DNA of 64,000 nucleotides from Yuukianura sp. NJ FZ-2021. Its lineage: Eukaryota. Shown one piece after another: positions 16,127 to 54,748 of the stretch. The stretch is taken from contig CM102289.1 in NCBI GenBank assembly GCA_046563655.1, positions 7,626,001 through 7,690,000 on the forward strand. Direction: 5' to 3'. A program made the position numbers and the translations under genes. Numbering within the stretch: position 1 is the stretch's first letter; each line of letters begins with the position of its first letter. The notes under the pieces were generated by a model that had not been told where the DNA came from, did no database searches, and saw only the letters and a program-made list of their open reading frames with translations.

Positions 16127-17677
16127 ATGGAAACGATAATACCATCCCGGAAACCACAGTTCGCAACCGTAACATGTCCAACATGCAATACCAAGGTGGA
16201 ATTTGCACTACCTAGTCAGAATTACCTGTCCTCTGGTGCTTCAACTGTCAAAGTTGGTTGTTATGCATGTACGTTTCACATAAGCTACAATGTTGGTAGT
16301 GGGTCACACGCAGCGTCTGCAAATCACACACCGTCGTCAACCACTCCGACTACAAATCGAAAGAAATTTAGAATCGGGACAGATGAGGAACCATATTCCT
16401 TGGAATACTACGAAACACTTGGAATCGGTCCCACTGCTACTCCAGCTGAAATTAAGAAAGCTTACTATGCGTTGGCCATGAAGTTTCACCCGGACAAATG
16501 TAAAACGGATGACGCTGAGGAGAAGTAAAAAAAAACCGGAACATAAATTAGTACATTCACATTCAAATTCGAAAATTGTGATATTACTTTGATTTCTTTC
16601 AGATTTAAGAAGATATCCGAAGCTTATCAGGTGCTATCTGATCCCGTTCTAAGAAAGAAATATAACGAATATGGTCCGAAGAATGCAGCCCCCGAAGGTA
16701 ACGAATTTCTTAGTACAAAATGTTTCTATATGCGGCCATTTTTTAATGTCGAGCTTTGAACTTTATTTAGGTGGATTTATGAATCCCGAGGAGTTTTTCC
16801 AAGCTCAATTTGGAGGAGATCGATTTATCGACATCATTGGGGAATTGGCAATCGCCAAACACTTTAAATCTGCAATGGCTGATGCTGAAGACGTTGGGGA
16901 AGGCGATGCTGGAAGTACAGCAGGAGCAGGAGGTGGATCAGCCGTTTCAACGCAAAATGGACTCACAGCGGAAGAGAAAAAGAAAATCACCATGGAGAAA
17001 CGAATGGAAGAATACGAATTACGTAAAAAGGAGAGGGAGGAGCGTGTGGCTAAACTAGCAGAGAATTTAGTAACGAAGTTAAAGAACTTCAGAGTAGGGC
17101 AAGAAACGGAATTTCGGAGATTCATTCACGATGAAGCAGAAGAATTGAAAGTCCAGAACTATGGTGTTCAGCTACTTCATTCGATTGGGTACATTTACTC
17201 AAACAAGGCAAACGAGTATTTGACGAAAGATGATCTCCTTGGAGTGACCAGTTTCTACCACAAGATGAAAATGAAGGGTCACGCTATTAACGAAACGTTT
17301 TCAACCATAAAGTCCGCTGTAGACGTTCACAAAACGTTTGTCCAGCTACAGGTACGTTTGCAAACTGAACTTCACCGTTTTCAATTACTTTTTTGTTGTT
17401 TATACTTCACCTTTTGTAATTTTAGGAAGCTGAGAAACGAGGAGAACTGGCAAACGAAGACGTCAAACAAAAGTGGGAAGCTGAAGCTGCGAGGAAAGGA
17501 ATCGAAGCACTTTGGCAAGGCAGTAAGTTGGAGGTTGAGTCAGTTTTGAAGTCAGTGTGTGACCGAGTTCTGGGTGACAAAACGATTGATTCAGCCGAAA
17601 AGAAGCGAAGATCAGAGGGACTCAAAATTATTGGAGAGATTTACCGTTCTGTAAAACCTGTGTTTGAGCATGCCTAA
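16127..17677 (+). CDS. DnaJ protein with N-terminal CxxC..CxxC motif, J domain and DnaJ-X domain (Djp1/Caj1-like), 441 aa
   Basis: Exons 16127-16524, 16603-16697, 16771-17351, 17426-17677. [108 protein letters not shown]. Confidence 0.9.
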
Positions 17678-18546
17678 AGTGCGTTAAGCAAACACAATAA
17701 TACTTATGCATGAATATGAATAACGTTTTTTCGAAATTTTTCTTGTTCATGTCATACAAATTTCACCAATCAGCATTACGTATATGCCTTCGTTGTCTTT
17801 GTATCTTACCATTTTACCTAAAATACACACTCCATTGCATTGTAGTCACTTACATGTGTAAACGTTTTAACGCAGCTTCTTGCTAGTCCCTTTTATTCTT
17901 TAGACTTTCGAATTTAGTCCACAAACATACGCTAGAAATTATAAGACGAATTCATTCCTTAAAATGGTGGGAAATGTGTACCTTTGTGGTGATGTGGTTA
18001 TGAAGATTTTATTATAATGATATGAAAAATCCGCTAATAATCTATTAATTCAAAAAAAAAAGATTAAATTAAATCAAATGTATTTGTCACAAAACTTTTT
18101 TTTGTAAACTTAGTATTTATCCAATTTCTCCAATACTTTTGTCAGGTTAGTTTACATACGTCTTACAAACGTTGTCGCATACTACGTGGTATAGTATTAC
18201 CTACGTCAAACATTGTCAGAATGTCAGAGGTTCTTTCGCGTACAAGACGATAATTACCATTACCAGGAACCTTACTGTATTTGTAGTATTGTAGTAACCG
18301 TATGTCTCAATGTTACCCGTCTACCCGCGTATCACGTAATTTTGAAAGTATCGAAAACTTGTCAACTAAAAACATTGACATTTGACATTGGTGAAAAATG
18401 TATTACTACAGTCAATACAGTGGACAGTGGAGTAATGTAGTTGTTAGTGAAGGTCAAGGGTCAGCATTTAGCATTCTACCTGAACATTGGTAATGTCTGT
18501 ATCTAGTTGTTTACAATTAACGTCAGAAACTCAAAGTTTTTAAGTA

Positions 18547-19722
18547 ATGTTAATGTTATGGAAAGAGGGTCTCGGAAATAAGAGATTGGAAATTAGCAGC
18601 TTAATTGTTATATACTTTGCCTACTTTATAACAATTACCCCAACGGAACTTGTCGTCAATGTCAAAAATCATGTAAGACATCGTTACTTTTGAATTATCG
18701 CTTAAAATGTGTCGATTATTAATCAAAAATGTTGTTTACTCTTCTTTAAACAGGGAGGAGAAGTATTTCAAGAGTCTATTTGGGCTAATTTAACCGATGA
18801 CACGGTCCACCTTGAAGTGGAACAGCCAGACGGGAGTGTCATTATCCAGTTGATTGATTTCAGAAACGTATGACGATATAAACTATTAGTTTTTTTTTTA
18901 GCTAAAAGTAAAGATGAAGTAATTTTTTTCTAGGAAATACAAATCCTAAACGCATTTATTTTGGGGGAAGAGGAACGGAATGCAGCACAGTTCCAAGTAC
19001 TGTGCTTTGTCAGTCATTTTGACAAGGCTGACTTTATTCCTACTGACGCAATGGCCAAATTAAGACAAGTATTAACACTTTAGTTTTTAGTCCTCAGAAA
19101 CTGTCGTCAATGTCGCCATGTCACTTTTAATTGTCATTGCATCTAGAAAAATCCTTGGGCCATACGAACTCCCGAACGAGATCTCGGAGACGAAACATTG
19201 ACAATGGACGTCCTCTTGGACATCAGCACATCTGGCTGGATCTCACCACATATTAGTCATGTATGCGCAGAAGCTAGAGAAACTACTTACGGTTCTGAAT
19301 CACAATTGAAGCAAATTGTTGCCAAGAGACTCGCGGACAAAGCTAACGACACTTCTGTTGAACGAAGCATGGCATTTGCGGATGCTCAGGAACGTTATCT
19401 TCGAACAGTCAAGCCATTTCCTATTGAAAAGTTTGACTGCAATTCGCGTTACATCTATGACAAACCGTGTCAGTGTCAACTTAACCTCTGTATTCGTAAG
19501 TAACTTTTGAATTTGAATCTACTGTTAACACCATCACTTTTAGACAACATTAGTACGTATCAATTTTCATTTTTCATAGGGTGGTATCCATGTGCTCTCA
19601 AATATTGTCAAGTACATGATTCTTCTGGAAAATCTACTTCGTCGTATCGTTGCGGAATCCAAACATGCAAAAAGTGTCGCCATTTTATTTACTCTGTTTC
19701 GCGTAAATTCTTTTGTGTTTAA
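18547..19722 (+). CDS. oaf: Out at first protein
   Basis: 5 exons. ELVVNVKNHGGEVFQESI; QLIDFRNEIQI; ILGEEER; DAMAKLRQKNP; WYPCALKYC; YRCGIQTCKKC. Confidence 0.9.
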
Positions 19723-23599: not shown

Positions 23600-25838
23600 A
23601 TGAAAACTAAACTTCCGAAAGATTTGATCAAGGAAAGTTTTGCCAAGTGCTCTGGTGATTATGGATCGACAAAAAGTCCAGCAAAAAACGAAATACGACT
23701 GCGCAAAGAAATCGGATTGCTAGAAGCAGTAGCGTTAACGGTTGGTGCTATCATTGGGTCAGGTCAGTAAAAACCAATATTAAAAAAACGAATTTTGGTG
23801 TAGAAAAATGTTTAGTTTTGGTTTTTGTAGGAATTTTTATATCGCCTAAAGGCATCTTGGAATCCGTTGGTTCTCCAGGAATGACAATCGTTATATGGAT
23901 TTTGTGTGGATTTATTGCAACTAGTGGAGCCATGACACTTATGGAAATTCAATTGGCAATTCCAAGTTCTGGAGGATTCTATAGTTACTTCCTGGAAGTT
24001 CTTGGTCCAATTCCAGCATTCCTAAATCTTTGGATTCACATGTTCATTTTTGGGTACACTTTTTTGAGAATTTGAAAAACGAAAATTTTGTTTCATGTTT
24101 GCATAGTACGTTTTACATTGGTTTTAGGCCATCCAGTTTAGTAATTCTAGGACTCGCCATTGCCAGGTACATTACTGGTGCTATTTTTCGAGAATTAGGT
24201 AATTTAGGAAAAAAATTGAAATTTTATTCAGAAAAAAAACGCTTGAAACCTTGATGATTGATTTTTAAATTCGCATTTTTTAGAGTATCCAGCTCCAGAA
24301 ATTGCGTTAAAACTAATCGCCGTTTTGTCAATATGGTTGTTTATTTTTTTGAACTGTTACGACGTCCGTGTTACGGCAAAACTGCAACAAGTGTTTTTCC
24401 TTGCCAAAATTGTTCCGTTGGTTGTAGTGATTGTAGCTGGACTTTACTATGGCTTAACCACGGGCGGTGCAACTATTACGCAACTTTGTAGTTTTGAAGG
24501 TGCCACTACCGATCCAGGAAAAATAGCTTTAGCACTGTACTACGGTGGATTTACATACGGCGGATGGGATTCTCTGTGCTCACTTACAGAAGAAATCAAA
24601 AATCCAAACAGGTTCCAAACTTCCAATCCAAACTTCCAAATAAAAAAAAACTTAAAAAAAATCTTAGCCAATTTTTTCTTTGTTTAATTTTAGAAACATG
24701 CCGCTTTCAGTCTACATTTCAATTCCCTTAATCACTGCCATTTATGTGCTAACCAACATAGCCTATTTGATTGTCCTTCCACAAGAGGAGTTCTTGGCTT
24801 CTGAGGCCATTGGAGTAGTAAGTTTTGGCGAATTTCAAATTTTAGTGCTAAAGATTGATGTCTAACTTGAGAAAATACTTTTAAATCACACGATACATGA
24901 ATTTTATTTATGTTTTTTAAACCATTTTTTTAGACATTTGTTGAGAAAGTTTTTGGACCTTACGGTTGGATGATGAGCGTTGTTGTGTCAATTTCAATTT
25001 TAGGTGTTCTGTCAATTAATATTCTGACAGCATCTAGGTAAGCTTTGACCGTGACCTTCAAATGACCTTGACGAATTTAGATGACTGATTGACATTTGTT
25101 CACTTCAGGCATGTTTTTGTTGGCGCCAGAAATAGACAATTTTTGAGCGTGATGGGACACTTAAAAGAATCAAGAATGACACCAGTCCCAGCAATTCTAT
25201 TTCTGGTAAGTGTCAAAAAACTTCAAAATATGTTTATCAAAAAACTTCAAATCAATCAAATCTTACGTAATTTGTTTTTTCAATTTCAGGGAATTATGTC
25301 ACTGGCCTACCTGATTACAACAGACATTTTTCTACTGATTGACTACACCAGCTACATGCAGAACATGAACAATTTCGGAATTTTGGTTGTCTTCTATTAC
25401 CTCAGATGGAAACAACCAAAACTTGAACGACCTATTAAAGTAAAATTTATTATAAAATAAATTATTCAAAACTTACAATTAAAAAATTATTTTGGCGCGC
25501 TTTTTTTTAGGTATCACTTGTTCATCCATTTCTGTTTTCCTGTTCTACTCTATTCATGATGATCTTCCCAATTTACAATCGACCAGTTCAAGTTGGCGTT
25601 GGACTTGCAGTAGGATTGACTGGCCTTCCAATTTTTCTATTGTTCTTCTATGCCAATGGAAAGCCTAGAAACACTTTCCGCATTTCAAACATCACAGGTT
25701 AAAAAAAAGTGTTACAAAAAACTAAATGTTACAATCGCTGTTGACAATTTCACAGTATTTTTTTTAATTCCATCCTGATTTGCAGGAAAAGTGACACATT
25801 TTTTGCAGAAACTATTTCTGTGCTTACCTGAAGACTGA
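23600..25838 (+). CDS. SLC7 L-type/y+L amino-acid transporter light chain
   Basis: [87 protein letters not shown]. Confidence 0.9.
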
Positions 25839-26826: not shown

Positions 26827-29800
26827 ATGGTAAGTGAAACAAATTCTTTCTTTTTTTGTACAAACAAAGTTTTAAATAAATTGAATTTTTTCTTTACTTT
26901 AATTAAAATTCTGATCTTTGAAAAAAAAATTCAATAGTTAAAAATTCGGACGTTAGTTAATTTTTATTTTTCGCAACTGTAAAGTTTTGATCCGTGGGCG
27001 ATTTCGAAATTGTGCAATTTGTAGTTGGCAAAATTGGAAAGTTGTTAGGGAGTTCTCAATGATTTGGCAATGTCCTTTATGAATAAGGCATGAATTTACA
27101 GTTAACATTCCTTAAGGATATGCAGATCTGTCAAATTTGGCACCAAACGATTCGAATACAAAAACCTTGATTGACTATTTAAAATTTCTTGTCATTTTTG
27201 GCAACATTTTATGAATTTTTTTTTATTCTAAAACTTTTTGATAACTTTTTGTTTTAGGCTGATGGACATGCCAATTTAGGATTTCAAGAAGACAATAAAA
27301 ATGAAAATCAGCCACCATTTTCGCTACCAAGAGAATCAGTGGATAGCAACGAAGATTTTAAGACAAAAACACATTTTAGATGGGAATCTGCATTGCCTCC
27401 GGAACACAACAACAGGAATGCTTCACTCGGCACAATTTCCAAAAAAGTAAATTTGTCTAAAATGAGTTTGATTTGATGAAATTTGTGAATTGATGATGAA
27501 AATTTGTCTAAAATTTGAAAACGTGGCCTCTCATGTTCTCACCACTTGGTTTGGATTGTGTAATACTTAGGTTAGTGACGCCGAATCATATTCATCATAC
27601 GATAACTACGCCCTCGAACGTGGACAATGGACAAATCAACTTGAATTTTTATTCAGTTGTTTATCTATGAGTGTTGGTCTTGGAAATGTCTGGCGATTTC
27701 CAGTAACTGCATGTAAATTAAAAACTTATAGCAAATTAGCCAAGCACTTAAATCTAAAGTTTAAAAAAATATTGAAAATGTCAAATTTTTTGAATTTTAG
27801 ATGACAATGGCGGTGGAGCATTTCTGATTCCGTATTTCATTGTACTCATATTTGTTGGTAGACCGATTTACTTTCTGGAACTTTGCGTTGGTCAATTTTG
27901 TTCGCAAAGTCAAGTCAAAATTTGGCGTGCCAATCCTTTGTTCAAAGGTACAACTTTTTGGAAAAAAATTTCACATAAAATTAATTTTTTTAAAGTAATT
28001 CTTACTAACTTTCTTTATGTTTAAGGCGTGGGATGGGCAGCAATGATAGCAACTTTGAGTGTGATGTCTTACTACAGCTCCATCATGGCGCTGACAATTT
28101 TCTACTTTTTCGCATCTTTTTCAAAAGTTCTTCCATGGACAGTCTGTGATCCCACTTGGGAAGGAGTAGATTGTGATGCCGTTAATACAACATCCACAGC
28201 AGAACTCTATTTTAAGTAAGCTAATTGCTCTAATTGTCAGAAAAATCAAAATTTGAAGTTCGAAAATTTTTGGAAAACAATCAAACCAAACAATTTTTTT
28301 TTCAGAAATGAAGTGCTAAAAGAACTGCCCAACATCGACAACGGTATTGGATACCCAGAAATACGCTTATCCCTGTGTCTCTTATTAACCTGGATCATCA
28401 TCTACCTATCACTGATCAAAGGAGTCAAAAGTTCAGGAAAAGTTGCCTACTTCACAGCACTTTTTCCTTATGTCATTCTCATTACGTTTTTGATTCGTGG
28501 AGTTACGCTGGAGGGGGCATCGATTGGCATAGAAGCATTTCTGAAACCTGATTGGCATAAGCTGTATGACCCTGTCGTTTGGTACGTTCAAAATTTTACA
28601 AAATTTGATTTTCATTGTCCAGGTTTGAAAATTCAATTTTGAATTTCCAGGTATAATGCTATTAGCCAAGCCTTTTTTAGCTTAAATACTGGATTTGGCT
28701 CTGTCATTATGTTTGCGTCGTTCAATCCATTTCGACATAACATTTACAGAGGTAATCCGTCTGACCTTTGACCTCAAAAATTTAGCATAATGTTAATTGT
28801 ATGTTTATTTTTTGAGTTTAGACGCTGTTATTCTGAGTGTTATGGACACACTGACTTCGTTTGTGGCTGGAATCACTGTATTTTCTGTCATGGGCTACTT
28901 GTCATACAACTCTGGTGAAGATATTAGCACTATTGTTGGTGGTGGTGGTACGACAATTGCATTTGTGGCATATCCTACCGCCATTGCAGAATTTCCGTTA
29001 CCACAGGTAAAAAAGTTTCAAAATATCATAATTTTGACAAAAATTCAAAAATTTAAACAAAAGTTTTGTTTTTAGCTCTTTGGCGTATTGTTCTTCCTGA
29101 TGTTGTTTACATTGGGAATTGGCTCAGCGACGGCTGACGCCGGCGCAGTAATTTCCCTCTTTGCTGACAAATACACCACCTTCAAACGTTGGAAAATTAC
29201 GACAATAGTTTGTATCTCGGCATTTGCAGTGGGATTAGTATACTGCACTCCTGGTGGCCAGTACATCCTAACGTTGGTGGATTACTACGGTGCTGCTTTT
29301 GTCATCTTCTTAACCAGTATACTTGAGGTAAAGTCATTGACCTGTTTTGAGAAATTATGAAAATATGAAACTTAGAACAAATTTGTTTTTAGGTTATTGG
29401 CCTATGTTGGGTGTACGGTCTGAGCAACTTCTTGAGTGACATGGAGTTTATGTTGAACACGAAATTGGGATGGTACTGGAAGATTTGTTGGGCAGGAATA
29501 ATTCCAGTTGGTCTCAGCTGCATTTTAGTCTACGGTTTGATTTCGGCTGAAGCACTCGAATACAACGATGTTCCTTTCCCGACTTCAGCCATAGGTGAGG
29601 CAAAATTTGATTAAATACATTATATTACATACATATATACTATAATTATAGTTATCATAAATCAACTAATCTTTTGTAATCTGATTTTGAAGTTGCCGGT
29701 TGGTTGCTCGCTGTGGTATGTCTTCTGCCTCTACCAATTTGTGCATTTTTAGCACTGCAAAATGCTGAAGCTGAGGGTTTGGTTGGTGTAAGTTGAAATT

Positions 29801-29970
29801 GTAACTTTATAACTCCAAAATTTCTACAACTCAAAATTTTAACTTGGAAATGTTTCTTAAAAATTTAGAAACTAAAAGAAGCGACTTCTCCTGCAGCTAA
29901 CTGGGGTCCGATGAATCCTAAAATTCGAGCGGAATGGATTGAACATAAGCGCCAAAATGGTCGAAAATGA
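26827..29970 (+). CDS. SLC6 sodium-dependent nutrient amino-acid transporter (NAT-like), copy 1
   Basis: ATG immediately followed by an intron. [69 protein letters not shown]. Confidence 0.92.
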
Positions 29971-30417
29971 AATACAAAACATGAATGTACATAAAAGAAA
30001 CATGCTATACCAAACACATTTTTCCCATGACCGAATTAAATTATTTAAATATTTTTAACATCTTATTACACAATAGTTCAAGTGTAACACAATTTTGTTA
30101 ACAACGCTTGTCAATATAAATCCATTTTTACGCAACTGTTCACCTTTTCAACATCTTTTCTTCGCTTTTTTAGTTGACAGTGATTTTGATTTGGAGAAAA
30201 AAAAAGGCAATAGTTGCAATCCTATCGTATGCTTTACCTTGGCAACTTAAATTGTTGTATAAAAAGTACCTTACTTAATGTAAATATTTTTAACTTTTTG
30301 TTTTAAAAGTCTTATCAGAGGCCAAATTCGAATTCAAACGTCTATTCACTTTATCATGCTGCTAAAAGAAAAATTGTTTAGTAAGTTTATTTAATTTTTG
30401 TCACTTTATGCTTCAAA

Positions 30418-33058
30418 ATGCCTAAAGCTCAAGATTTGGACGACAATGTAAAAAGACAATTTTTCAGCTAAAACTGTTTTGCAAAATTTTATTCAGTGAA
30501 CATTTCCATTTTGAACAGGATTACAAAGCTGATTCCGCCGATGCATCGGCCAGTGAAGTTGGATTTGACGGAGACGGTGAAGGAACGTGGGATGACATTC
30601 CGCTGTCTCAGTCATCTTCCGTAAATGACATGGAATCACGGGCTCGAACAGTATGTAAAAATTTTGAAGTATTTCAAAAAACTTAAACTGAGTTGGAAAT
30701 TGTGAACAAATGCAGAAGTCGGAAATAGAAGAGCTTCAACTAGATTCCGAAGAAAGAGATCAATGGTCCAATCAATACGAATTTCTGTTTTCTTTGATCT
30801 CAATGAGCGTCGGTCTCGGAAATGTTTGGAGGTATCTTTTTGTAAATTAAATTCTTCGTAAAACCAATTTCAAAATTTCGAACAGATTTCCAATAGTTGC
30901 TTCAGCCAATGGCGGTGGAGCGTTCCTCATTCCGTACTTGATTGTACTCATGTTCGTGGGACGCCCAATTTATTTTTTGGAATTGGCCATTGGTCAGTTT
31001 TCATCTCAAACACAAATCAACATTTGGACTTGTTGTCCAATTTTGAAAGGTAACGTTGGTTTTTAAAATTTCTACACTTTCACTAAATTTTAAATTTTGA
31101 AATAGGAATTGGAATCTCTTCGATGTTGTCTACAATTTGTGTTTTGACATACTACACAAGCATCCTGTCTCTAATTACTATGTACTTTGTTGAATCATTC
31201 TTCCCTGTTCTACCATGGACTCAATGTTCTGAAATGGTGAAACCAAACTGTACTTTTCATAACGTCTCCACTGCCAAATCTCACTTGAAGTAATTAAATT
31301 TGCAAAAAAAAATTGTTTTTCTAAGTTTCTGTTGTTAATTTTTCTCATTCTTAGGTACGACGTTTTACATCAGAAAGAAAACATCGACGATGGCATTGGT
31401 CGAGCACAGTGGCATTTGACCCTTTGCCTTCTGTTTGCATGGCTTTGCATTTGCTTTTCTTTGATCAAAGGAGTCAAAAGTTCAGGAAAAGTGGCCTACT
31501 TCACAGCATTGTTTCCGTATGCGGTGCTGATCATACTGCTCATCCGTGGAGTGACGCTGGAAGGAGCAGGAACGGGGATTCTAGCGTTCCTCAAACCAGA
31601 TTTTTCAAAATTGATCAAACCAAAGGTACAAAGCTGTATTTTAACAAAATTTGCAAGGTTGTTTTTCATTTTGAAATTTAGTTTTTGGTCAGGTTTGGTA
31701 TGAAGCGACTAATCAAGCATTTTTTAGTCTCAACACTTGTTTTGGATCAATCATCATGTTTTCCAGCTTCAATCCTTTTCGACACAACATTTACCGGTAA
31801 ATTTGCAACAGTTATCGTTAATTTGCATTATTTATTTGCAAAATTACAATATTTGGCGGCAAGCTTTGTGTAAACGAAAAGTAATTGTCCAATTTTGTTC
31901 ATTTTTTTTTGCAGAGATGCAATAATTCTGAGTTTCATGGACACTTTGACGTCACTAATCGCCGGAATCACTGTTTTTTCAGTTGGTGGATTTTTGGCTG
32001 TAAAAACTGGAAAAAGTGTTGAAGAAATTCTTGACGGTGACACTGGCATTGCTTTCATAGCTTATCCAACAGCCATTTCGGAATTGCCGTGGCCAAATGT
32101 ATAGTTAATTTAATTCTGAAACCTTCAAAATTTCGAGAAAAAAAATTTTTTTTTTCTGGGTTGCAGTTTTTTGCTGTACTGTTTTTCTTGATGCTGTTTG
32201 CACTGGGCCTTGGCAGTTCTGCGGCGGATGCTGGCGCTGTTATTTCCATAATCGCTGACACTTTTCCGAGACTCAAGCGCTGGATAATCACATGCACAAT
32301 TTGTCTCTTAGCGTTTCTTGTGGGAATTCTCTACGTGTAAGCTACGATCCAAAAATTTTCAATCTTTTTTATACTTTTTAATTTACTTTTCAAAAACATA
32401 TTTGCAGGACTGAGGGAGGACCGTTTGTTTTGAATTTAGTAGACACTTTTGGAGCATCATTTTCAATTTTCATTGTGGGAATTTTGGAAATTACCGGAAT
32501 TGCCTACATTTACAAACTGAGCAATTTCATCAGTGATGTGGAGTTTATGCTGAATAGGAGGTTAGGCTGGTACTGGAAAATCTGCTGGTACGGAGTCATT
32601 CCTGTAGGTCTGTCTGGAGTGCTGATTTACGTCTTGGCCTTCCAATTGTTCAGTGAACCACTTAGCTATGCTGGGGCTCCTTACCCCGTTTCAGCTATTG
32701 GTAAGTTAAAAAAAATCAACAACAAATAGTTCAGACAGAACTGAAACTTTACTCATCTTAAGTTGATTTAATTTTGTTTTGTAAATTGTAGTTATGGGGT
32801 GGCTGGTGGCTGTGATGTGTTTGTCTCCGATAGTGATTTGTGCAATTATAGAACTGATTCAAGCTAAGGGCGTGACATTTCTTGACGTAAGTGTTTGAAC
32901 CTGCGAGTTAAAGTTTTCAAATGCTTTAGTACATTTTTTTAAACATTCTTTTTTAGAAATTGAAGCAAGCTTGTAAACCAAAGAGGACTTGGGGTCCTAG
33001 AAATCCATCGATCAGGGCTGAATGGAAAGAGTGGAAGGAAGGACACGGAAGAACTTAA
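30418..33058 (+). CDS. SLC6 sodium-dependent nutrient amino-acid transporter (NAT-like), copy 2
   Basis: [71 protein letters not shown]. Tandem paralog of copy 1. Confidence 0.92.
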
Positions 33059-35977: not shown

Positions 35978-36541
35978 AAATTCTTCGCTTCAAAATATTT
36001 GGTAAACGATTGGGAAAAGGTTGGGACCAAATTAAGATTTCACATTTTTTGCCCAGTTTTTGAAAATTTCGGCATACAATTTCAAAATGGTCTCTGTAAA
36101 AAAAATTGGAACGCGCTTTCACCACTGTGATGCTGGTCGTCCCGTATAACTTATAACATTGCTCAACGTTTGATAACTTCGTAATCAGAAATACGTAACG
36201 CAGAGGCGAGGCGGAGAAAATTTTTTATTTTCGTCAAAGTGAAATATCAGACGGCGAAGGCATTTGTCATTATAATTGATGTAATTTTCTGCTTATGTCA
36301 TTTTTCTCATGTATTGGCGTATAGCAAGTGTTTTTCGTCAAGGCTAAATAGATTAAAACGACGTAGACCCATTAACTTTTTTGCATGGAATTCACGCTTC
36401 GCAGTTCCTCTGATTTAAGCTTTCAAAAAGTAAGTTTCTTCCACGTAGTCAATTGCTTCTTCAAATTGTGTGGAATCCACAGTAGACTGTTTAATTTCAG
36501 CAAAAGTTAAAATTGAACAGGTCAGAACAAAATTTTCAAGA

Positions 36542-37050
36542 ATGTCTGAAGAGGGAAAAGATTTGAGGGATGGCGGTTGTTGTACTTCGAGGAAAGCTAA
36601 TTTGCAATACGTCATGCAACAACCCCTGGTTACTCCATGTCCAGAACTTGTGGCTCACATGGTCCATTTGACGTTCCCTCCTGGTGACATCGGGGCTCCC
36701 CCACATACTCATCCTGGCCCAGTCGTTGGCTATGTTCTGGAAGGCGAATTCCTGTTTCAGGTAACTGCGCTAAAGTTTTGTTATTGAAAGTTTACTAAAT
36801 TGTACGTTCCATTTTTAACATTGTTCCTTAGATGAACGGTGAACCACGACGCATACTCAAAGCTGGTGAAGCATTCTACGAAAGATATGGTGACATCCAT
36901 GTCTGGTCTGCCAATGCATCGGATACTACGACCTGCAAGGTCGTATCGACAGTATTCGGCATACCAGGGGAACCACTCTCAACAGACGTCGAAGGCCATC
37001 CACGCGAAAGTCGACAAGAGGCATTGGAACTCGCAGCTCAAGGAAAATAA
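36542..37050 (+). CDS. Cupin-2 domain protein C, 145 aa
   Basis: Exons 36542-36760 and 36832-37050. Intron and exon 2 nearly identical to copy A. Confidence 0.9.
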
Positions 37051-37380: not shown

Positions 37381-37892
37381 CTTCTGAAGAGGGAAAAGAT
37401 TTGAGAGATACATGGCGGTTGTTGTACTTCGAGGAAAGCTAATTTGCAATACGTCGTGCAACAACCCCTGGTCATTCCATGTCCAGACGTTGTGGCTCAA
37501 ATGGTCCATTTGACGTTCCCTCCTAGTGACGTCGGATCTGACCCACACACTCATCCTGGTCCAGTCGTTGGCTATGTTCTGGAAGGCGAGTTCCTCTTTC
37601 AGGTAACTGCGCTAAAGTTTTGTTATTGAAAGTTTACTGAACTGTACGTTACATTTTTTACATTCTTTCTTAGGTGAACGGTGAACCACGACGCATACTC
37701 AAAGCTGGTGAAGGATTCTACGAAAAATATGGCGACATCCATGTCTGGTCTGCCAATGCGTCGGACACTATGACCTGCAAAGTAGTGGCAACCGTGTTAG
37801 GCAAACTACGGGAACCAATTTTGACTTACGTCGAAGGTCATCCACGAGAAAGTCGACGAGGGGCATTGGAGCTTGCCGCTCAAGGAAAATGA
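37381..37892 (+). pseudogene. Cupin copy D, probable pseudogene or N-truncated form
   Basis: Start ATG lost (AAAACTTCTGAAG vs GAATGTCTGAAG in C) and a 4-nt insertion near 37410. Downstream frame intact from ATG 37501. Exons end at 37602 and resume 37674-37892. Confidence 0.7.
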
Positions 37893-45679: not shown

Positions 45680-48600
45680 ATGTTTCTAGCAAATTATTTC
45701 GCGCTGCTTGTCCTCGGTGCTTTTGTGCAAAATGTCAACTGTCAAGATTTTGAAGGTAAGAAATTTTGTTTTTGAAAAATTAGTAGTTTTTTCTTAAAAT
45801 TTGGAAATGTAAATGTTTTGATCTTTGTAGATGTGCAGCCACTCCTTGTCGATACGCTGAACAGTCTCAGAACTTCAATTCTCAATCTGCAAAGAGAAGA
45901 GGCCCAACTTGTATGCTTTCACCAAAAAATTTTCCCAAAATCTAAAAACAAAAAAAAATTCTGTTTCTTTTAGGTAGCCGAGAAGGATGCACTGAAAGCG
46001 ATTTTGGCTGGGTGTGACTGTGGTAAGTTCGTTTAAAAAAAATGTAAATTCGATTTTTTTTTGGGTTTCTAATTTTTAAAATTCCGCGTGTCACAGAACG
46101 ACCAGATCCACTTTCTGCATGTCAAGCTTTTCCACCGCCGTGTTATCCAGGTATGAATATTTTTGAATGAATTTTTATGAACGAATTCTATAAAATTTCG
46201 GTTTTTGATGTTTTTTTTTCGTTTATAACAGGAGTATCGTGCCGCCCGCTTCCTGGAGGACGAGCTGAATGCGGCGCATGTCCCGAGGGCTTTTCAGGTA
46301 TGTAACGATATTTCAGTCAAGTTGCGTTAAACTTTGTTAGAAAGCAAAATTCGTTATTAAAATATTGACGTAAAAATGTAGGAGACGGACGGAGATGTCG
46401 CCCAGTTAGCATATGTATTCAGCGGCCCCCATGCTTTGAAGGAGTTCAATGCTACGACATTTCGACGGCACCCGGCTACCAGTATGTTTGTTTAAAAAAA
46501 AATCACTTTTTTTCTCTTCTGCGATAATACTTCATCTTTTTTTGTAAAATATAGGTGTGGTCCATGTCCACCAGGCTGGACAGGCGATGGAATAAGGTGT
46601 CGGCAGGAAAGAATACGCTATTGTGACAGCAGTCCATGTTACATTGGTAAGCATCAAATTTTAAACTTTTCTCAAGTTTCCTAAAGTTTTCTATTAAAAG
46701 ATTTCAAAATGAATTTTAGGTGTTCAATGTCACGAGATGGAACATGGTCATCGATGCGGTCCTTGTAAGATTAATTTTCAGTTGCTAACTAAAAATTCAA
46801 CGTACAGTTTTAATTTGTTTTTACTGAAATCCGTCAGGCCCACGTGGGTATACTGGCAATGGCGAGGACTGTAGACCAGAACGTCCAAGATATTGTGACA
46901 GAAATCCTTGCTACGCAGGTTAGCTTAACAGAAATTTAAAATTTTGAACATTTTTTAAAATTTGGATTCTCTTGTTTGAAGGTGTTCAATGCTATGAAAC
47001 GGAGAGCGGATACCGGTGTGGTTCTTGTAAGTATGAAAATTTTAGAAAAATTTAATTTCGTCAGTCAGTTTTTGTAACTTAAATTTTTATATAGGTCCAC
47101 AGGGCATGGAAGGTAATGTCAAATATTTTGATTGGTTTTACGATTGTTATTAATATTTTTCACTTTCTTCAAGGTGACGGACGTCAGTGTCGCCCGGAGC
47201 GTCCAAGATACTGTGACAGAAATCCATGCTACGCAGGTTAGGCAAATATAATACCATTTTCGAACTTTTGTGCTAACCAAATGGTATTTAAACCCAAAAT
47301 GTTTCAATTGTTAGGTGTTCAATGCTACGAACTTGAGGGTAGCTACCGATGCGGTTCATGTGAGTACAGACCATTTAAACTAAAAAATTCATTCAAAATT
47401 ACGTAGTAGTTCAAAATTACACTGATTTTTTCTGTGAAATATAGGTCCAGACGGGATGGAAGGTATTAAAATTTTACCAGTTTCAAAATTACTGAATCTC
47501 TCTTGTTCATCAAAAAAAAAATTCAACGCAATGATCCGTCAAACTTAATTGGAAATTGGGAAACAATTAGTGAAAAAGTTTTCTTTTTAACCAATAGGTG
47601 ACGGGCGCCAATGTCGTCCCCAGCGCCGCAGACACTGCGACAGCAACCCTTGCTTTGCAGGTTAGTTAAATCGCAAATTATATCGAAAGCGACATAAACT
47701 TCTTACCTTGATGTATCCATTAGGTGTCCGATGTCACGAAACGGAAGGTGGCTACCGCTGTGAGCAGTGTCCAGTAGGCTACGAGGGAGATGGCGAAAGA
47801 TGTCGAGAAATCCGCGCATGTGCTTCAAATCCATGCAGTCCAGGTTGGTCCCCACGGCAGAACTTTAGTAACACGTTGTAGAATACCCGAGAGTTAACTT
47901 TTGACCTTGAATCAAAGGTGGACAGTGTTATGAGCGACCACCGCACGGTTACGAATGTATCTGCAACACTCCAGGCTACGAAGGGGACTCCAGAAGATGC
48001 TGGCGTGTCAAGCCGTGTGACAACCAGGACCGAAGACCCTGTGCTGCAGGTACTACATGTACCAAACAATGTACCCCGACATATTCCGTCTTCCAGCTCG
48101 GCAAACCGTTCGCTCTTCCCAGCCACTCAACTAACAAATAACAAACAAAAGAAGACGAATCATGAATCTCCTTTGCTTTTCAATACTGTTGTAAATATGA
48201 ATTTAATCTTGGGAATTTGGGCAAATAAAACTTACTTTTAATCGCTCCTTCCTTAAGACTGTCCGAGCAGCATCAATCTTCCACCGACGACATTCAAGCG
48301 ACATCAGCTCTACAATTGGCTTCAGTTTTCCTAAAATTTCATTTAAAAAAAGCAAAATTAGAATTTGTGGTATTATAATTAAATTTTGACTTGCGCAGGC
48401 GTCCAGTGCAGAAACACTGAAGTTGCTCCGTACTTCATGTGCGGTGAGTGTCCACACGGAAGTTCTGGAAACGGCATTACTTGCGTCGATATCAACGAGG
48501 TTAGTGGCTCAAAAGTAAAATATCACCTCAAAATATTGAAATACTGCCAATACTGGAATACTGCCGATATTAGTACTGTTCTTATTTCAGTGCGATGAAA

Positions 48601-48884
48601 ATCCTTGCGATCCCCGTGTTCGTTGTATCAACCTGAGTCCAGGCTTCCGCTGTGAAAACTGTCCCGCTGGATTCACTGGTCACCGTGGATTTGAGGGAAT
48701 CGGAATCGAGTTTGCTCGACGAAACAAACAGCGTTGTCAGGATATTGACGAATGCTTGTATGATAACGGTGGATGCGACAAAGACACAATGCGTTGTGTC
48801 AATACGGAAGGATCATACAAGTGTGAGTACTGCGAATGGAAAGAAACTTCTCCAGCACGGAAGTGGCCTTTCAGTTTCAGTTAA
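45680..48884 (+). CDS. COMP/thrombospondin-like secreted protein: signal peptide, coiled coil with CxC, about 10 EGF repeats; no type-3 repeats or C-terminal domain in window
   Basis: About 19 short exons. [60 protein letters not shown]; repeated PC(Y/F)xGVxC..CGxCPxGxx[42 protein letters not shown] (group-B thrombospondin EGF). The 3' end is uncertain: splice donor at 48823 or stop at 48882-48884. Confidence 0.85.
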
Positions 48885-49036
48885 AAACTGAAACTTTTAA
48901 AACTAATTCCAGTTAAAAACGTATCGCCTTTACCACTGCCAAATTCTAACTGACTAATTTTAACACTAATAGCTTCAAAGTAAAACGTAGGAACATCGAA
49001 CGTTTTGGAATTAAAACTTAACGAATTTTATTATTG

Positions 49037-50521
49037 CTACTGTACCGGCTGAAGAAGACTAGTGACGCTTGCGTTAGTACTTTCAGTTCTATTCTTGCTA
49101 AAAATCATCAGTAAAATCAAGACGGGAAGATGAATCAAAGAGTATCGGAAGAGTTTTCTCGAACTTGCACTGTCCTTGTTTTGGTAAAACTGGTACGCTG
49201 AAATATGAAACAATTTTAGAACAAGTTTTAAGAGAGAATTAAAGTTTCAACTTTACCTAAATATACTGCATATAAGTTGACTGGCAGTGACTCGATTGGA
49301 AAGAACCAAGAAGTTAGGCCTGCTGCGGGGGCTAAAGAAGAGAGGACGACTAAACTTGCGCTATATCGGAGGCAAGTACGAACACACAAGTCAGGATGAG
49401 TCACGGACATCATTCTGTATCCAGCTCTCTTGTAGTCGGCTCTCAAATTCCAGGACAGAGAGTTGAAATGGACGAATTGCCAAGAGAACAGAATTCCAGC
49501 AAGAAGGAAACCGCCAGCACTGAGGGTTCCTTCCGCAGCAGCCCAGCCCATCAATGGCGGTAACGCACCGACTAGAATGAGAAACCACATTAATGACTCA
49601 TGTTAATTTTTAATTTAGTAAGCATAAATACTTACCGACGGATCCCACCCATGTATTTAGAATACTCTGTCGCTTCAATGGGGTGTAGATGGAGGTGTAA
49701 AGAAATAAGTTTGTGGCTCCGAGAACAGCAGTCAACGGGTTTGCCATGTAAGTCAGCATTAGTAACCCAGCGGAAGCGGAGGTCAGAGCAAACCCAACAG
49801 CATGCGGAATGCTAAAAATGTGTGAATGGTGAGCACAATCATAAAGTACTTGATGAAATATATCCTAGTCCTACCTTAGTAGCTCTCGCACAAGAACTCG
49901 TCCCTTCGTCCTAATCATTTCCGAGTCATATGGTATCTCTACGATCTGGTTCACAGTGTTTGCTCCAGCACTTAGCAGCAACGTTCCAACGGCCGTTGCG
50001 AAGAGAATACTTGGATCGAAAACTCCAGGAGCCATCATGTATCCAGCGACACTCGTGGACATTACTAACGAGCTAAGTCTGAATTTGGATAGACTCATGT
50101 AGTAAGCCGGTAGTTGACTAAACTTGAGCTTTTCTTTCACCAATACTGCTGGGTCAACGGTGGTCACGAGTTTCAGCGGATGTGACGAAATGGGATGGTA
50201 AGCGATGTTGGGCTGATCCCTTTCTTCAGCAGCCTCTCCATTTAAAGTTGACGTTGGCGTCAAATGTGTCGAACTGGGAGTTGCTACGCAGTCGAGTCCA
50301 GCTGATGCAGCAGCAGCATTCTCTCTTGGTTTTGAAACTAGTGTCTGCAGTAATCTAAAAATAAGAAGAAAAGAATCAGGGCATACCAGTCGAGACCATA
50401 CTTGTTTTTGTTTATTTGTTAAGTGTATTGCGAACCTCAATTGTTTTAGGTAATAAGTACTGGTGTTAAGTTTCAGTAGCCTTCCTTGATGTCTTCCGAG
50501 ATATAGAACAGTTCTAAACAT
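49037..50521 (-). CDS. COX10: Protoheme IX farnesyltransferase, mitochondrial
   Basis: [89 protein letters not shown]. Confidence 0.95.
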
Positions 50522-51082
50522 TATGGCGAATACTGCTTAACTTCTTCCGATTACAAGCAGTTCCTTAATACCCAGAGCCGGAGTTTTAGTTTATGGTTCA
50601 GGGCATTTCGGAATATTGTAAAATTCAATTGATATCACGAATATGACCCCTTACTTTTCAGATTCGAAGATTACATTAGATATCAATTCAGCTGCTATTG
50701 GCATTAAATTAAGTTACTACCTAATAACTTATTAGCTATTACTAAATAAGAATAAGAATTCTCAACTGATAACCACAACAAATGCCCTTTTGGAGCACAT
50801 GTATACCGAACCAGTCAACCAGTGAACAAAAACACATGCAAAATCAAAATCAAATTCACTTTTTAAAAATGTTCAAATCCCTCGATTTCCCGCCTCCGTC
50901 TCGGTCTCTTGGACAAACACAAAAGCGATGAAAAATCTTCGCTACTTTTTCAAATAATTAATCAGGCTTTGCATTTGCCGTAAAATTAGATGAATTAAAA
51001 AATAGAATTAGTTATATTGATAACAATTAAACTGTAAATAGTACTTGCCTTAATCGTTCTATAGTGTAGGGAATCCGTTAAG

Positions 51083-52358
51083 CTAATACACAGCTACGTT
51101 TGAGCCAAATTCGGGAAAAATTCTTAATGTCATTGCTTGAGGTGCATCTGATGCCAAAATCAAGAACGTGGAGACACTGTCGTCTCGAACTGTGAGAAAT
51201 GACATGGCGGTGATATTGGGATGGACGGGCCATTCGAACGATTGTAGAAAGTCCATCCCTGGGAAACTGAAAAGCCGAACTTTGGAGTCCCATCCATGAA
51301 CCAGTATCTTGTCTTTGTCAGGATGCAGTAAAATCCTATGTACTCCAGGATTCGGGATACCTTTTGCTTTTACTAATCGAAGTGATATTTTAGCTGATGA
51401 GATTTCAAGGGTTACGAGAACAAGGACGTTGGCTCTTGTTCCCACCAAAAAATGTCCACTGACTTCATCCCCAGCACAGCAGAGGGGAATAGGCATGTTT
51501 TCGTCGGACGTCTCGTGACATTGTCGTTTTGCGTTTTGAACAGTATCGCTCTTAAGGAGGTCGACTTCTTCTAATATTGTAGGACGTTGATCCGATAAAT
51601 CAACTAGGCTCAGTTTCCCACTCTCACTGCCCACAAGAACTAAGTTGATGTGACGTTCAAATGCTGTGAAGAACGTGATATGAGTAATGTTTAGAAATTT
51701 TAAACGTTTGAGCGACCTGGAAATGGGATCAACTTGAATCAAGCTATCTTCATCGTCTATGTACTTCGTTTCATTGTTTCCGTGGCAAAATGGTGTAGAA
51801 AATCCGGGATTGGCTCCAGGCGTGTACTGGATTAAAGTCCATCTTACAATTCCAGACGACGAACACTCTGACAGAACCTCAACAAAGAGTCCAAAACCCC
51901 TCGAGTACACCAGAAATGTAATTTGATCGTCAATCACACGAACGGCGGCCCAAGAGCTACTGGAATGCCCCGTTTGCAGTGACAACACGCTCCTGCAAAA
52001 CAGCTATTAGAAAAAGAACAATGTGTGAATCCTCAACGTCCATAATAGTAATTTGAAAATTCGTATGGTTAAAAATAGCTTACTCCTACTCCCCAAATCT
52101 GAATCAATCCTTCATCCGTAAGAGTTCCAAAAAACGACGAGTATGGCTTCATCATCGGTCCTAAATGTTCGTGTGTTTTTGAAATCCTTTGAATAATATC
52201 CACTTCCACATCAAATATGAACCTGACAACACCCTCCGGTTGAAGTGTCACCAATTTCTGAAAATTGAATCATTAGTCAGTCATAGTCTTTACATAAACA
52301 GGTTTAAATTGGCCTTAAACTAATTTGTTACTTTTTGGTTTCTTACTTTTGGAGCCAT
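51083..52358 (-). CDS. Divergent WD40 protein, GNB1L/Asa1-like
   Basis: 3 exons: MAPK, then KLVT..GLIQIWGVG, then a long last exon. LVGSESGKLSLVDL and PGVHRILLHPDKDKILVHGWDSKVRLFSF resemble the GNB1L C-terminal motif. Confidence 0.65.
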
Positions 52359-52466
52359 TCTCAAAAAATTCTAACGTTGTCTACGAAGAGTTCACCAATA
52401 AGTCACACAATTCCACCGTCTCAGTGATATAGTATGTAACGTAGCAAAGAGGTCAAAGTTCAACCA

Positions 52467-52474
52467 TATCGATA
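52467..52474. promoter_or_regulatory. DRE element TATCGATA upstream of the WD40 gene
   Basis: Perfect palindrome about 110 bp upstream of the ATG at 52358; known housekeeping promoter motif in insects. Confidence 0.5.
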
Positions 52475-52898
52475 ACACTAGCAACAACAAAAACGATTTC
52501 TTCAATTAAATCAATGCAAAACTGCTGTCATTCGCACATCGCACGTGGACTTTCATCAAAACCAAAACACCAGAGCTGTTCAGCTTTGTGTGAATTTACC
52601 ACCAGAATTTACACGTGACGGGAGCGTCTAATCTATTAAACAAGCTGTACCGATAGATGGCGGGAGCGTCTGTATTTGAAAATCTCGTCAAAATTTAAAA
52701 TTTCCAACATCTTTGAAATTTACACATTCCAAATACGTTCCTTAATGCCAAAAAGTGATATATGTAGAAAATTGCGCAGTGTTTAATTAACCTAAAGAAT
52801 AAATCATAGCTGCCTTCTTTACACGGGAGGCTTATTAAGCATTAGTTCCTAAATTAGTAATAGACCAACGATTTTTCAGACAAATTCTGTTCAGAATT

Positions 52899-54189
52899 TT
52901 ATCCCAGCAGAACTTTGCGCATTCTGTTATCTTCACATTCAGAATCCGAAGATGTTTCGTATGCCGGGGAATGATGATCTGAACATTTCGGTGAGCAGAG
53001 ATATTGCAGAAGAGGAACTCGATACTTGCCACAAAAGTCCACAAATTTGATATGCTCCACACAAGTGTCGAAGTAGACACCTAAATAAAAATTAAGAGGT
53101 TAGTATAAACTGAATAACATTTTAAAGTTCCCGGGCAATTTAAAAATGTGGTCATTCACCTTTGCATTTTGGATTGACACATTGATGAGCACAGCCCAAG
53201 TAGTCGTTCAAGTCTTTCGGTAGATCTTCAGCCTTGTACTGCACTTTTTTAGTCTTAATCATGCGTCCCGCCAATTCCATCAAAGATGGAGGGTTGTACA
53301 CCAGGTCACGGACGAATCGTACTACAAGTGGATTGTCACGCAGACTCAGCTAAAAACAAAAAAAAACCAAACGTGAATTCAAAACCGTTACAAATGAAAG
53401 CTAAATTCAAAATTTTAGAAAATTTCCCACCTCCATCAAATTTCGAAGTTTGATCAGCTCAACAGGAAGTGCTGTGATACGATTCCTGTGAAGTAGAAGT
53501 GACTTGAGCTGCTTCAAATTTGAAACGCTTGATGGTAAAGTCTCCAGAAGATTTTCACACAGTACGAATACTTTTAATTCCGTAAGTAATCCAATTTCCA
53601 ATGGTATTTCCGTCAACTGATTTCCGCCAATGAAAAATACTTGCAGTTTTTTCAGTTTTCCAATTTCTTTAGGAAGACTCGAAATCCGATTTCCGCCAAG
53701 ATGAAGCGAGATGAGAGACGGAGCCAATTGAATAATTGCTTCTGGTAGTCGTGTGAGGAAGTTTCCACTTAGATTGATTTCCTTCAAGTGTCTTAAGGGT
53801 GTCAAGTCCTTCGGTAAGCCCGAATCTTCCAGAAGATTGTTTTGGAGAAACATGGTACTCAGAGAGCGACATTCCGTAATTGAATCTGGTACACTCGTTA
53901 ATTGATTTGAACTCAAATCCAAACTTTTGAGATTCGAGTACAGGGCAAGTATAGAAGGAAACTGAATAAGAGAAATGTTGATTCCGAGTATAGTTGTAAC
54001 GGATTCCAAAATTTTTGAAGGTTGATTGGCCAGGGCTTCTTCAAATTCTGTATTTTCAAATGGAGTGTAGGAGTAGTCCAGAACCAAAGACGTACCGGAG
54101 TAACCAGATTCGGTTTCGGTTTTTTCGGGTTCTTCTGAACCGGTATCGCTCCGACCTTGCTCGGATTTGTATAAAAGTGATTCGGCCAT
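52899..54189 (-). CDS. LRRC58: Leucine-rich repeat protein 58
   Basis: 3 exons. Tandem LRRs, then LSLRDNPLVVRFVRDLVYNPPSLMELAGR, CVNPKCKGVYFD, HIKFVDFCGKYRVPLLQYLCSPKC, MRKVLLG*. Confidence 0.92.
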
Positions 54190-54748
54190 GTTGAATTAAA
54201 GTTCGTCACTGAAAAAAGTGAACGTTGGGAGCCAAATTTGAACTTTTGGTGTCGAGGTTCTTCTGGAAGAGGATGGAAGTGGACTGCTCGTACTTTTTGT
54301 GTGTGTCTCTTTTGTGTTGTGTATATCTGTATCTATTTAAAAACAGAAAGGGATATCTTGTTAGTATGAAAAAGTAGTACCGGAATGGGGCTTAAAGTGT
54401 TTTAAGTGGCAGTGTCAAAGCTGTCTCATCTTTTAAGCTTTGGGCATACTTTGAACTCTGCGTTATAAGTTTAGGACAGTATCAGTATGACTTTGGACAG
54501 TCTAAGTTATGGAACTAACGTAAGTTATGGTATGTTTCATTCTTTACTCAAGAGTCAATTCACCCGTAACTCACTAAAAGTTAGACTTACGTTACGTAAA
54601 GGTCAAACATGCACAATACATCCTTGGAACTGATGCTTCTCTTGATTTGGAGGAACGTAGAATGTACACGAGAGTTCAGAAGTCGACAGAATAATCTGCT
54701 TAATATTGCATCACTGTTTGTATTCAACTTAATATGTACTTAACTTAC

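What the first reader, a model, noticed from the sequence alone, without database searches (positions are those of the whole stretch)
16127..17677. Fungal-type Djp1/Caj1-like DnaJ-X chaperone inside an animal gene neighbourhood
Seen: an intact 4-exon gene with CxxC..CxxC, J domain (HPD) and X domain. Established: J plus DnaJ-X proteins are known from fungi (Djp1, Caj1), plants and apicomplexans and are not a standard animal family. The PEGGFxxPEEFFxxQFGGDRFxDIIGE motif and the N-terminal Cys ribbon look, from memory, like early-diverging fungal proteins. Inference: a fungus-to-arthropod transfer of a chaperone, a class less often reported as transferred than metabolic enzymes.
Basis: partly seen in the sequence, partly recalled or inferred. 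Interest (0 to 1): 0.72.

Follow-up and report, generated by a model that had tools for sequence, protein, structure and literature searches.

The report
Fungal-type co-chaperone gene in a springtail
A springtail chromosome carries a working gene for an Hsp70 helper protein of a kind otherwise found mainly in early-branching fungi; it was probably taken from a fungus long ago and later passed from springtails on to fungus gnats.

Summary
Four exons give an intact 441-aa protein with a Cys4 ribbon, a J domain (HPD) and DnaJ-X; it is the only such locus in the genome. It is not contamination: a related species keeps the order COASY-ANT-gene-oaf and two of three introns, with dN/dS about 0.05. 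The host is a springtail.

Relatives in Allacma, Bradysia and unnamed soil sequences form one clade (100/100). Its best non-animal match is Basidiobolus (49%). Bradysia nests beside Allacma (73-75% identity, against 56-57% for this gene), and trees that keep gnats outside are rejected (p-AU 9e-6). This points to a second, springtail-to-gnat transfer.

Two corrections. The protein is not a Djp1/Caj1 orthologue but belongs to a ribbon-bearing paralogue with no study that I found. The fungal origin is favoured but not proven by the tree (p-AU 0.23 and 0.13), and an amoeba has the same architecture.

Likely function: cytosolic Hsp70 co-chaperone, perhaps for organelle-bound precursors (inferred). 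Both transfer routes have precedent; this gene was not found in print.

The parts
16127..16524 (+). exon 1: start codon, Cys4 ribbon, Ser/Thr-rich linker, first two thirds of the J domain
16175..16270 (+). Cys4 zinc-ribbon-like module (C17, C20, C45, C48)
   Evidence: all four cysteines invariant in 8 of 8 aligned N-termini; beta-ribbon model, mean pLDDT 82; zinc binding itself is inferred
16403..16672 (+). J domain (about residues 93-156, interrupted by intron 1); end is approximate
   Evidence: Pfam PF00226
16487..16495 (+). HPD motif, residues 121-123
   Evidence: sequence
16525..16602 (+). intron 1 (78 bp, phase 2); same position in relative L009
16603..16697 (+). exon 2: end of the J domain and start of the G/F-like motif
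16698..16770 (+). intron 2 (73 bp, phase 1); absent in relative L009
16771..17351 (+). exon 3: G/F-like motif (to about 16844), acidic Gly-rich linker, long helix, first half of DnaJ-X (from 17034)
17352..17425 (+). intron 3 (74 bp, phase 0); same position in relative L007
17426..17677 (+). exon 4: second half of DnaJ-X and stop codon
11762..13468 (+). neighbour: bifunctional CoA synthase (COASY); bounds from ORFs, approximate
   Evidence: same order in L009
13660..15038 (-). neighbour: ADP/ATP-carrier-like gene, head to head, start codons 1089 bp apart (1273 bp in L009); low end approximate
18544..19722 (+). neighbour: out at first (oaf), the exons matched by L007; bounds approximate

Best explanation
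A domesticated, horizontally acquired J-domain co-chaperone. SHOWN: the gene is intact, single copy, chromosomal, under strong purifying selection, and belongs to one clade with springtail and sciarid sequences. INFERRED, history: an early springtail (or a deeper soil arthropod) took the gene from an early-diverging terrestrial fungus, Basidiobolus-like on present sampling. Lineages then gained different introns, some springtails appear to have lost it, and an Allacma-like lineage passed it to sciarid fungus gnats. INFERRED, mechanism: a soluble cytosolic protein whose HPD loop triggers ATP hydrolysis by host Hsc70, while the helical X domain holds the client and the N-terminal ribbon binds zinc and acts as an adaptor (about 85% for Hsp70 co-chaperone). 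By analogy with its yeast paralogue Djp1, the likeliest clients are hydrophobic precursors bound for mitochondria or peroxisomes (about 40%). A J domain needs only the conserved Hsp70 surface, which would let a foreign copy work at once.
For: Synteny: L009 has COASY-SOD-ANT-5' half and L007 has 3' part-oaf, at 84-85% aa identity. Depth in 30 of 30 bins in 4 of 4 contig sets from 2 studies, with no step at the gene. dN/dS 0.049 against L009, compared with 0.089 (COASY exon) and 0.112 (oaf exon). Host: a neighbour's best named hit is Orchesella dallaii at 56%, a beetle 41%. Animal clade 100/100 in all four careful trees. Best non-animal BLAST hit Basidiobolus meristosporus, 402 bits, against 197 for S. 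japonicus Caj1/Djp1 and 204 for the amoeba. Basidiobolus is sister in 4 trees (93; 90/79; 81; 85/96). With long outgroups removed and the root set on chytrids, animals fall inside terrestrial fungi (91/93). Gnats sit with Allacma plus P0004 (100/100); exclusion of gnats is rejected (p 9e-6 and 5e-5). Intron patterns differ: none in L004, two at other sites in L008. No hydrophobic segment (max KD19 0.91). Papers (passages seen): Basidiobolus is isolated from mite and collembolan cadavers (PMC7466969) and is a commonest top hit of transfer candidates in another springtail (PMC5644144); 17 P450s moved from springtails to Bradysia (as cited in PMC12051294); Djp1 needs all domains and its HPD (PMC13640660).
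Against: The fungal backbone is unresolved. Forcing fungal ribbon proteins into one clade without the animals is not rejected (p-AU 0.234), nor is forcing terrestrial fungi together (p-AU 0.13). Basidiobolus-plus-animals is never starred in a careful tree, and it is part of an open fork with two unnamed rows. An amoebozoan has ribbon-J-X, so the architecture is older than the animal-fungus split. Only 120 of 703 hits were listed, and most outgroup rows are unnamed, so holozoan or other animal copies are not excluded. Most animal-clade rows are unnamed: the L004 host is only 'animal, arthropod-like', and the non-Bradysia gnat labels rest on clustering. Groups for the AU tests were drawn after a first tree was seen. 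Function is borrowed from a paralogue at 35% identity.
Confidence: 0.74

Rival explanations
1. Vertical relic: the ribbon-J-X gene was in the opisthokont ancestor, was kept along the stem to springtails and was lost in nearly all other animals. The springtail-to-gnat step may still hold.
For: The AU tests do not reject placing animals outside the fungal sequences. The architecture exists in Amoebozoa. The animal stem is long (0.41).
Against: It needs many independent losses across animals (inference). No other named animal appears among 120 listed hits or 32 hits. Identity to Basidiobolus (50%) is about that between Basidiobolus and other fungal groups (43-54%). PMC10410713 (passage seen) reports the Djp1/Caj1 architecture as fungal in its survey.
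Confidence: 0.13
2. Several independent transfers from one unsampled, arthropod-associated fungal or protist lineage into different springtails and into gnats, so no animal-to-animal step.
For: Insertion sites and introns differ between sub-clades. Many rows of the clade are unnamed and their hosts unknown.
Against: Every row of the clade with genomic context lies among animal genes (L004, L007, L009, window) or is named as an animal. Allacma has two paralogues that are sister to the gnats (99/93), and 3 residues are shared by the Allacma, P0004 and gnat rows and by 0 of 82 other rows.
Confidence: 0.08
3. One transfer into a hexapod ancestor, with duplication and differential loss, so gnats inherited the gene vertically.
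For: A single animal clade; duplication occurs (two Allacma copies).
Against: Allacma-Bradysia identity is 73-75%, far above springtail-springtail identity of 56-57% for the same gene. No other insect is among the listed hits.
Confidence: 0.04
4. Fungal contamination stitched into the assembly.
For: No listed contig spans the gene and a neighbour (the table was cut, 524 pieces not shown).
Against: Same neighbours on both sides in another species, shared introns, host-like composition, even depth, and animal sequences as nearest relatives.
Confidence: 0.01

Closest known systems
Allacma fusca (P0003, P0005) and Bradysia odoriphaga / B. coprophila (P0013; P0034, annotated 'uncharacterized J domain-containing protein C3E7.11c')
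   Same: Same ribbon-J-G/F-X architecture, same clade (100/100), 56-57% identity.
   Different: They form a separate sub-clade; all are automatic annotations with no study that I found.
Ribbon-J-DnaJ-X proteins of early-diverging fungi and Basidiomycota, nearest Basidiobolus meristosporus / B. ranarum
   Same: All modules, including the N-terminal SRKP-like motif, the four cysteines and the motif before the J domain; 49-51% identity.
   Different: Fungal hosts; five alignment columns are fixed in the animal rows and rare elsewhere (0-3 of 75 rows); no functional study found.
Yeast Djp1 and Caj1 (S. japonicus Caj1/Djp1-type protein P0209 as the sequence used)
   Same: J domain, G/F-like stretch and DnaJ-X.
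   Different: No Cys ribbon (0 of 9 rows), separate clade, 35% identity. Roles in peroxisomal import, ER-SURF and Mim1/Psd1 biogenesis are shown for yeast only (PMC11014988 and PMC13640660 passages; PMC2133058 abstract start only).
Reported transfers among springtails, mites and Sciaridae (P450s, terpene synthases, a chimeric gene; AOX acquired separately)
   Same: Same taxa and, for 17 P450s, the same direction (PMC12051294 citing Feyereisen 2023; PMC11665903; PMC13389597; bioRxiv 10.64898/2026.06.01.729305; passages seen).
   Different: The P450s, terpene synthases and AOX are metabolic enzymes; this is a proteostasis co-factor that must work with a host partner.

Membership tests
J-domain proteins | J domain with intact HPD | tested here: met
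   PF00226 over cut-off, HPD at 121-123
J-domain proteins | helical J fold | tested here: met
   model of homologue P0001 (67% identical) matches the ERdj5 J domain, Z 11.0, rmsd 1.8, 73 aligned
J-domain proteins | stimulates Hsp70 ATPase | not testable with these tools
   needs an assay
DnaJ + DnaJ-X architecture | PF00226 followed by PF14308 | tested here: met
Djp1/Caj1 orthologues | N-terminal J domain, no zinc finger (PMC13640660 passage) | tested here: not met
   about 90 residues with four cysteines precede the J domain; 0 of 9 Djp1-type rows have them
Djp1/Caj1 orthologues | groups with Djp1/Caj1 in a tree | tested here: not met
   Djp1-type rows are a separate clade, 97/93; Umbelopsis vinacea and U. 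nana each hold both types
Djp1/Caj1 orthologues | acts in mitochondrial or peroxisomal precursor import | not testable with these tools
   inferred by analogy only
Class A DnaJ (DnaJ/Ydj1) | Cys-rich repeats after the J domain and a beta-sandwich C-terminal domain (definition recalled; PMC10410713 gives the architecture) | tested here: not met
   cysteines lie before the J domain, and the C-terminal part is all helix in the model
Zinc ribbon | two Cys knuckles on beta hairpins | tested here: inconclusive
   four invariant cysteines and a four-strand model; best fold matches are zinc ribbons but weak: ZitP Z 3.6, rmsd 2.2, 40 aligned; Pfam ribbon families below cut-off
Domesticated fungus-to-animal transfer | physically inside a host chromosome among host genes | tested here: met
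Domesticated fungus-to-animal transfer | intact, host-like introns and composition, purifying selection | tested here: met
Domesticated fungus-to-animal transfer | nested in fungi with the alternative rejected | tested here: inconclusive
   ML trees nest it; p-AU 0.234 and 0.13
Domesticated fungus-to-animal transfer | absent from other animals and holozoan protists | tested here: inconclusive
   none named among 120 of 703 hits listed; unlisted and unnamed rows unknown
Springtail-to-sciarid transfer | gnat copies nested inside springtail copies, alternative rejected | tested here: met
   100/100 and 99/93; p-AU 9e-6 and 5e-5

The most novel reading that the evidence does not exclude
A core proteostasis factor crossed two barriers in series (Basidiobolus-like fungus to springtail, then globular springtail to fungus gnat) and gave these soil animals a Djp1-like route for delivering hydrophobic precursors to organelles that other animals lack. 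It may serve the many other foreign membrane and organelle proteins that the two groups share, and be one marker of genome-scale gene flow from springtails into Sciaridae.
Probability: 0.25. Interest if true: 0.8.

Novelty: new variant of a known kind. Interest (0 to 1): 0.52.

Why it matters
Reported transfers into springtails and gnats that I found are mostly stand-alone enzymes. A co-chaperone that must dock on host Hsp70, kept at dN/dS about 0.05, shows that partner-dependent genes can move as well. It is a clean marker for the debated animal-to-animal route into Sciaridae, because the family seems absent from other insects. It also flags a zinc-ribbon paralogue of Djp1/Caj1, widespread in early-diverging fungi and Basidiomycota, with no functional study found; Bradysia is a laboratory model in which it can be tested.

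Tried and rejected
Expression: no RNA holder listed; the 4 runs laid were contigs only.

Structure of the X domain: sequence search of solved structures matched only the J domain in the 60 of 68 rows shown, as did the Foldseek rows shown. VIA gave only generic helical matches, Z 6.8 or less; the domain was not folded alone. The ribbon had no Foldseek match at E 0.001 or better. Its top row, yeast Tim15/Hep1 (an Hsp70 co-chaperone; E 0.23), is a lead only. The Atlas gave nothing usable for residues 1-80 (score 0.79).

A shared ANT/DnaJ promoter element: no conserved non-coding block with L009 (local score 22 against a shuffle mean of 24).

Naming the L004 host: its acetyltransferase has a 43% orthologue in G000, but no shared neighbours were found in 20 kb. 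Naming outgroups: of 20 proteins looked up, 4 gave a taxon.

Fungal intron positions could not be compared: the only likely fungal locus with flanks (L012) is Djp1-like by its N-terminal J domain. No DNA for Allacma or Bradysia was available. The mixture-model AU test on 52 rows did not finish and was replaced by smaller sets.

Literature: 0 papers hold J-domain protein + springtail + horizontal gene transfer. 3 papers hold the family identifiers, none on animals by title or abstract. No DnaJ or PF14308 term in 3 Folsomia supplements. No DnaJ term in the Holacanthella transfer table; none of its 17 DnaJ rows is clearly this family. Feyereisen 2023 is not held, so it is cited second-hand. Supplements of bioRxiv preprints and of PMC13389597 were not seen and could list this gene.

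No complex prediction was run: the J-Hsp70 pair is textbook. A strict tie to AOX is doubtful: F. candida has AOX, yet no F. candida protein is among the listed hits.

Full report
Observation. The four exons splice at GT-AG sites into a 441-residue open frame (one search was a first try with wrong bounds). Pfam finds DnaJ in exon 1 and DnaJ-X across exons 3 and 4. Four cysteines (17, 20, 45, 48) precede the J domain, HPD is at 121-123, and there is no hydrophobic segment. The locus is at G000:C7, in a 98.7-Mb assembly of 22 contigs, and is the only match for exon 3 and for PF14308.

It is a host gene. Neighbours are a bifunctional CoA synthase, a mitochondrial carrier lying head to head, and oaf. 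A neighbouring LRR exon has Orchesella dallaii as best named hit (56%; a beetle 41%; 2 of 15 hits carry a taxon), so the host is most likely a springtail. A metagenome scan returned 11 loci. L009 carries COASY, a Cu/Zn SOD, ANT and the 5' half of the gene; L007 carries the 3' part and oaf. They share introns 1 and 3 and lack intron 2. Identity is 84-85% with nearly saturated synonymous sites: dN/dS 0.049 for L009, and dN 0.098 with dS beyond correction for L007, against 0.089 and 0.112 for COASY and oaf exons. Contigs of 4 runs from 2 studies cover 30 of 30 bins with no step at the gene, though no listed piece bridges gene and neighbour. Contamination is excluded for practical purposes.

Relatives. 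Exon 3 found 32 proteins: 3 named animal (two Allacma fusca, one Bradysia odoriphaga), 17 named fungal, 12 unnamed. A profile search found 703, of which 120 were listed: 2 named animal, 100 named fungal, 18 unnamed. The Bradysia cluster has 14 members, including B. coprophila. No Folsomia, Orchesella or other insect is among the listed rows; the 583 unlisted rows were not seen. A full HMMER scan added 150 unnamed representatives, and the Atlas's nearest clusters are Mucoromycota and Basidiomycota J + X proteins. For the whole protein the best non-animal match among those held is Basidiobolus meristosporus (49%, 402 bits).

Trees. Of 285 proteins, 247 covered both J and X and went into a FastTree. 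I then picked 94 rows and subsets of 52, 35, 27 and 20, dropping long branches and near-duplicates. All recover one animal clade at full support. It has three parts: the window's gene with L007, P0001 and P0002; Allacma, P0004 and the Bradysia-like rows; and P0007, P0010 and L008. P0007 is an intronless gene between an intron-bearing trypsin-like protease and an acetyltransferase, in an unidentified animal. L008 has two introns at other positions. Differing introns fit gain after arrival (inference).

Second transfer. Bradysia is 73-75% identical to Allacma, whereas the window's gene is 56-57% identical to either. Gnats plus Allacma plus P0004 is 100/100 and gnats plus Allacma 99/93 (89/82). 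Holding the other animal rows together without the gnats is rejected (p-AU 9e-6 for 7 rows, 5e-5 for 10; LG+G4). The groups were drawn after a first tree, and most rows are unnamed. This route has precedent: 17 P450 genes from springtails in B. coprophila (PMC12051294, passage citing Feyereisen 2023, which I could not read), terpene synthases from mites (PMC11665903) and a chimeric gene (PMC13389597).

First transfer. Basidiobolus is the sister group in four trees, at moderate support (90/79 and 85/96 in the careful ones). With chytrids as root the animals fall inside terrestrial fungi (91/93). But the data do not reject fungal monophyly without animals (p-AU 0.234) or terrestrial-fungal monophyly (p-AU 0.13), and the amoebozoan Phalansterium has ribbon, J and X. 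So the fungal origin rests on similarity, patchy distribution and ecology: Basidiobolus occurs on collembolan cadavers (PMC7466969) and is a frequent top hit of springtail transfer candidates (PMC5644144). I put vertical retention at about 13%.

Family. The protein is not a Djp1/Caj1 orthologue. Those lack the ribbon (0 of 9 rows; 12 of 12 animal rows have it), form their own clade, and coexist with the ribbon type in Umbelopsis. The N-terminus folds as a four-strand module (pLDDT 82) whose weak fold matches are mostly zinc ribbons. A model of homologue P0001 shows ribbon, flexible linker, J domain, a long helix and an all-helical X domain.

Mechanism. The J/HPD-Hsp70 cycle is established knowledge. 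In yeast Djp1 the J, F/G and C-terminal domains and the HPD histidine are each needed (PMC13640660), and Djp1 serves ER-surface delivery of mitochondrial precursors (PMC11014988) and peroxisomal import (PMC2133058, abstract start only). I infer a cytosolic Hsc70 co-chaperone (about 85%), most likely for hydrophobic organelle precursors (about 40%), with the ribbon as adaptor. None of this was tested here. The head-to-head position beside ANT is kept in L009, but no conserved spacer element was found, and L004 has other neighbours.

Novelty. No paper on this gene was found; for all papers I saw search listings or keyword passages, plus keyword searches of supplements for PMC5644144 and PMC5490193, and no whole text. 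Earlier notes of this scan list several other genes in this genome shared only by springtails and gnats; they are unchecked leads. Verdict: a real and probably twice-transferred co-chaperone, new as a gene class on a known route. Interest 0.52.

Noticed in passing
window 36449-37050 and 37405-37892 (+): Two near-identical tandem two-exon cupin genes (Pfam Cupin_2). They look microbial to me from recall; no solved-structure match at E 0.1. Possible further transfer.
   Followed up: partly
L009 5632-6260 (-): A Cu/Zn superoxide dismutase gene sits between COASY and ANT in the relative; the window has only about 200 bp there and no match.
   Followed up: partly
P0005 (Allacma fusca, 942 aa): The J-X protein is annotated as fused to a carboxylesterase; the join falls inside the last X helix, so probably a merged gene model.
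   Followed up: partly
L008 near 1030: A one-base frameshift in an A run inside the J domain of this homologue: assembly error or a broken copy.
   Followed up: no
P0211, P0218, P0242 group: Ribbon-J-X proteins also occur in a protist clade that includes the amoebozoan Phalansterium; other members of the wider clade carry different N-terminal modules.
   Followed up: partly
window 23659-25460 and 28220-32729 (+): An amino-acid permease and two tandem SNF/SLC6 transporter genes; ordinary.
   Followed up: no
window 47800-54200: EGF/thrombospondin-like gene, COX10-like prenyltransferase, a 306-codon ORF without Pfam match and LRRC58-like gene; ordinary host genes.
   Followed up: no
L010, L011: Very AT-rich (GC 0.30 and 0.24) uninterrupted homologues that group with chytrids on a long branch; possibly anaerobic gut fungi (guess).
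   Followed up: no
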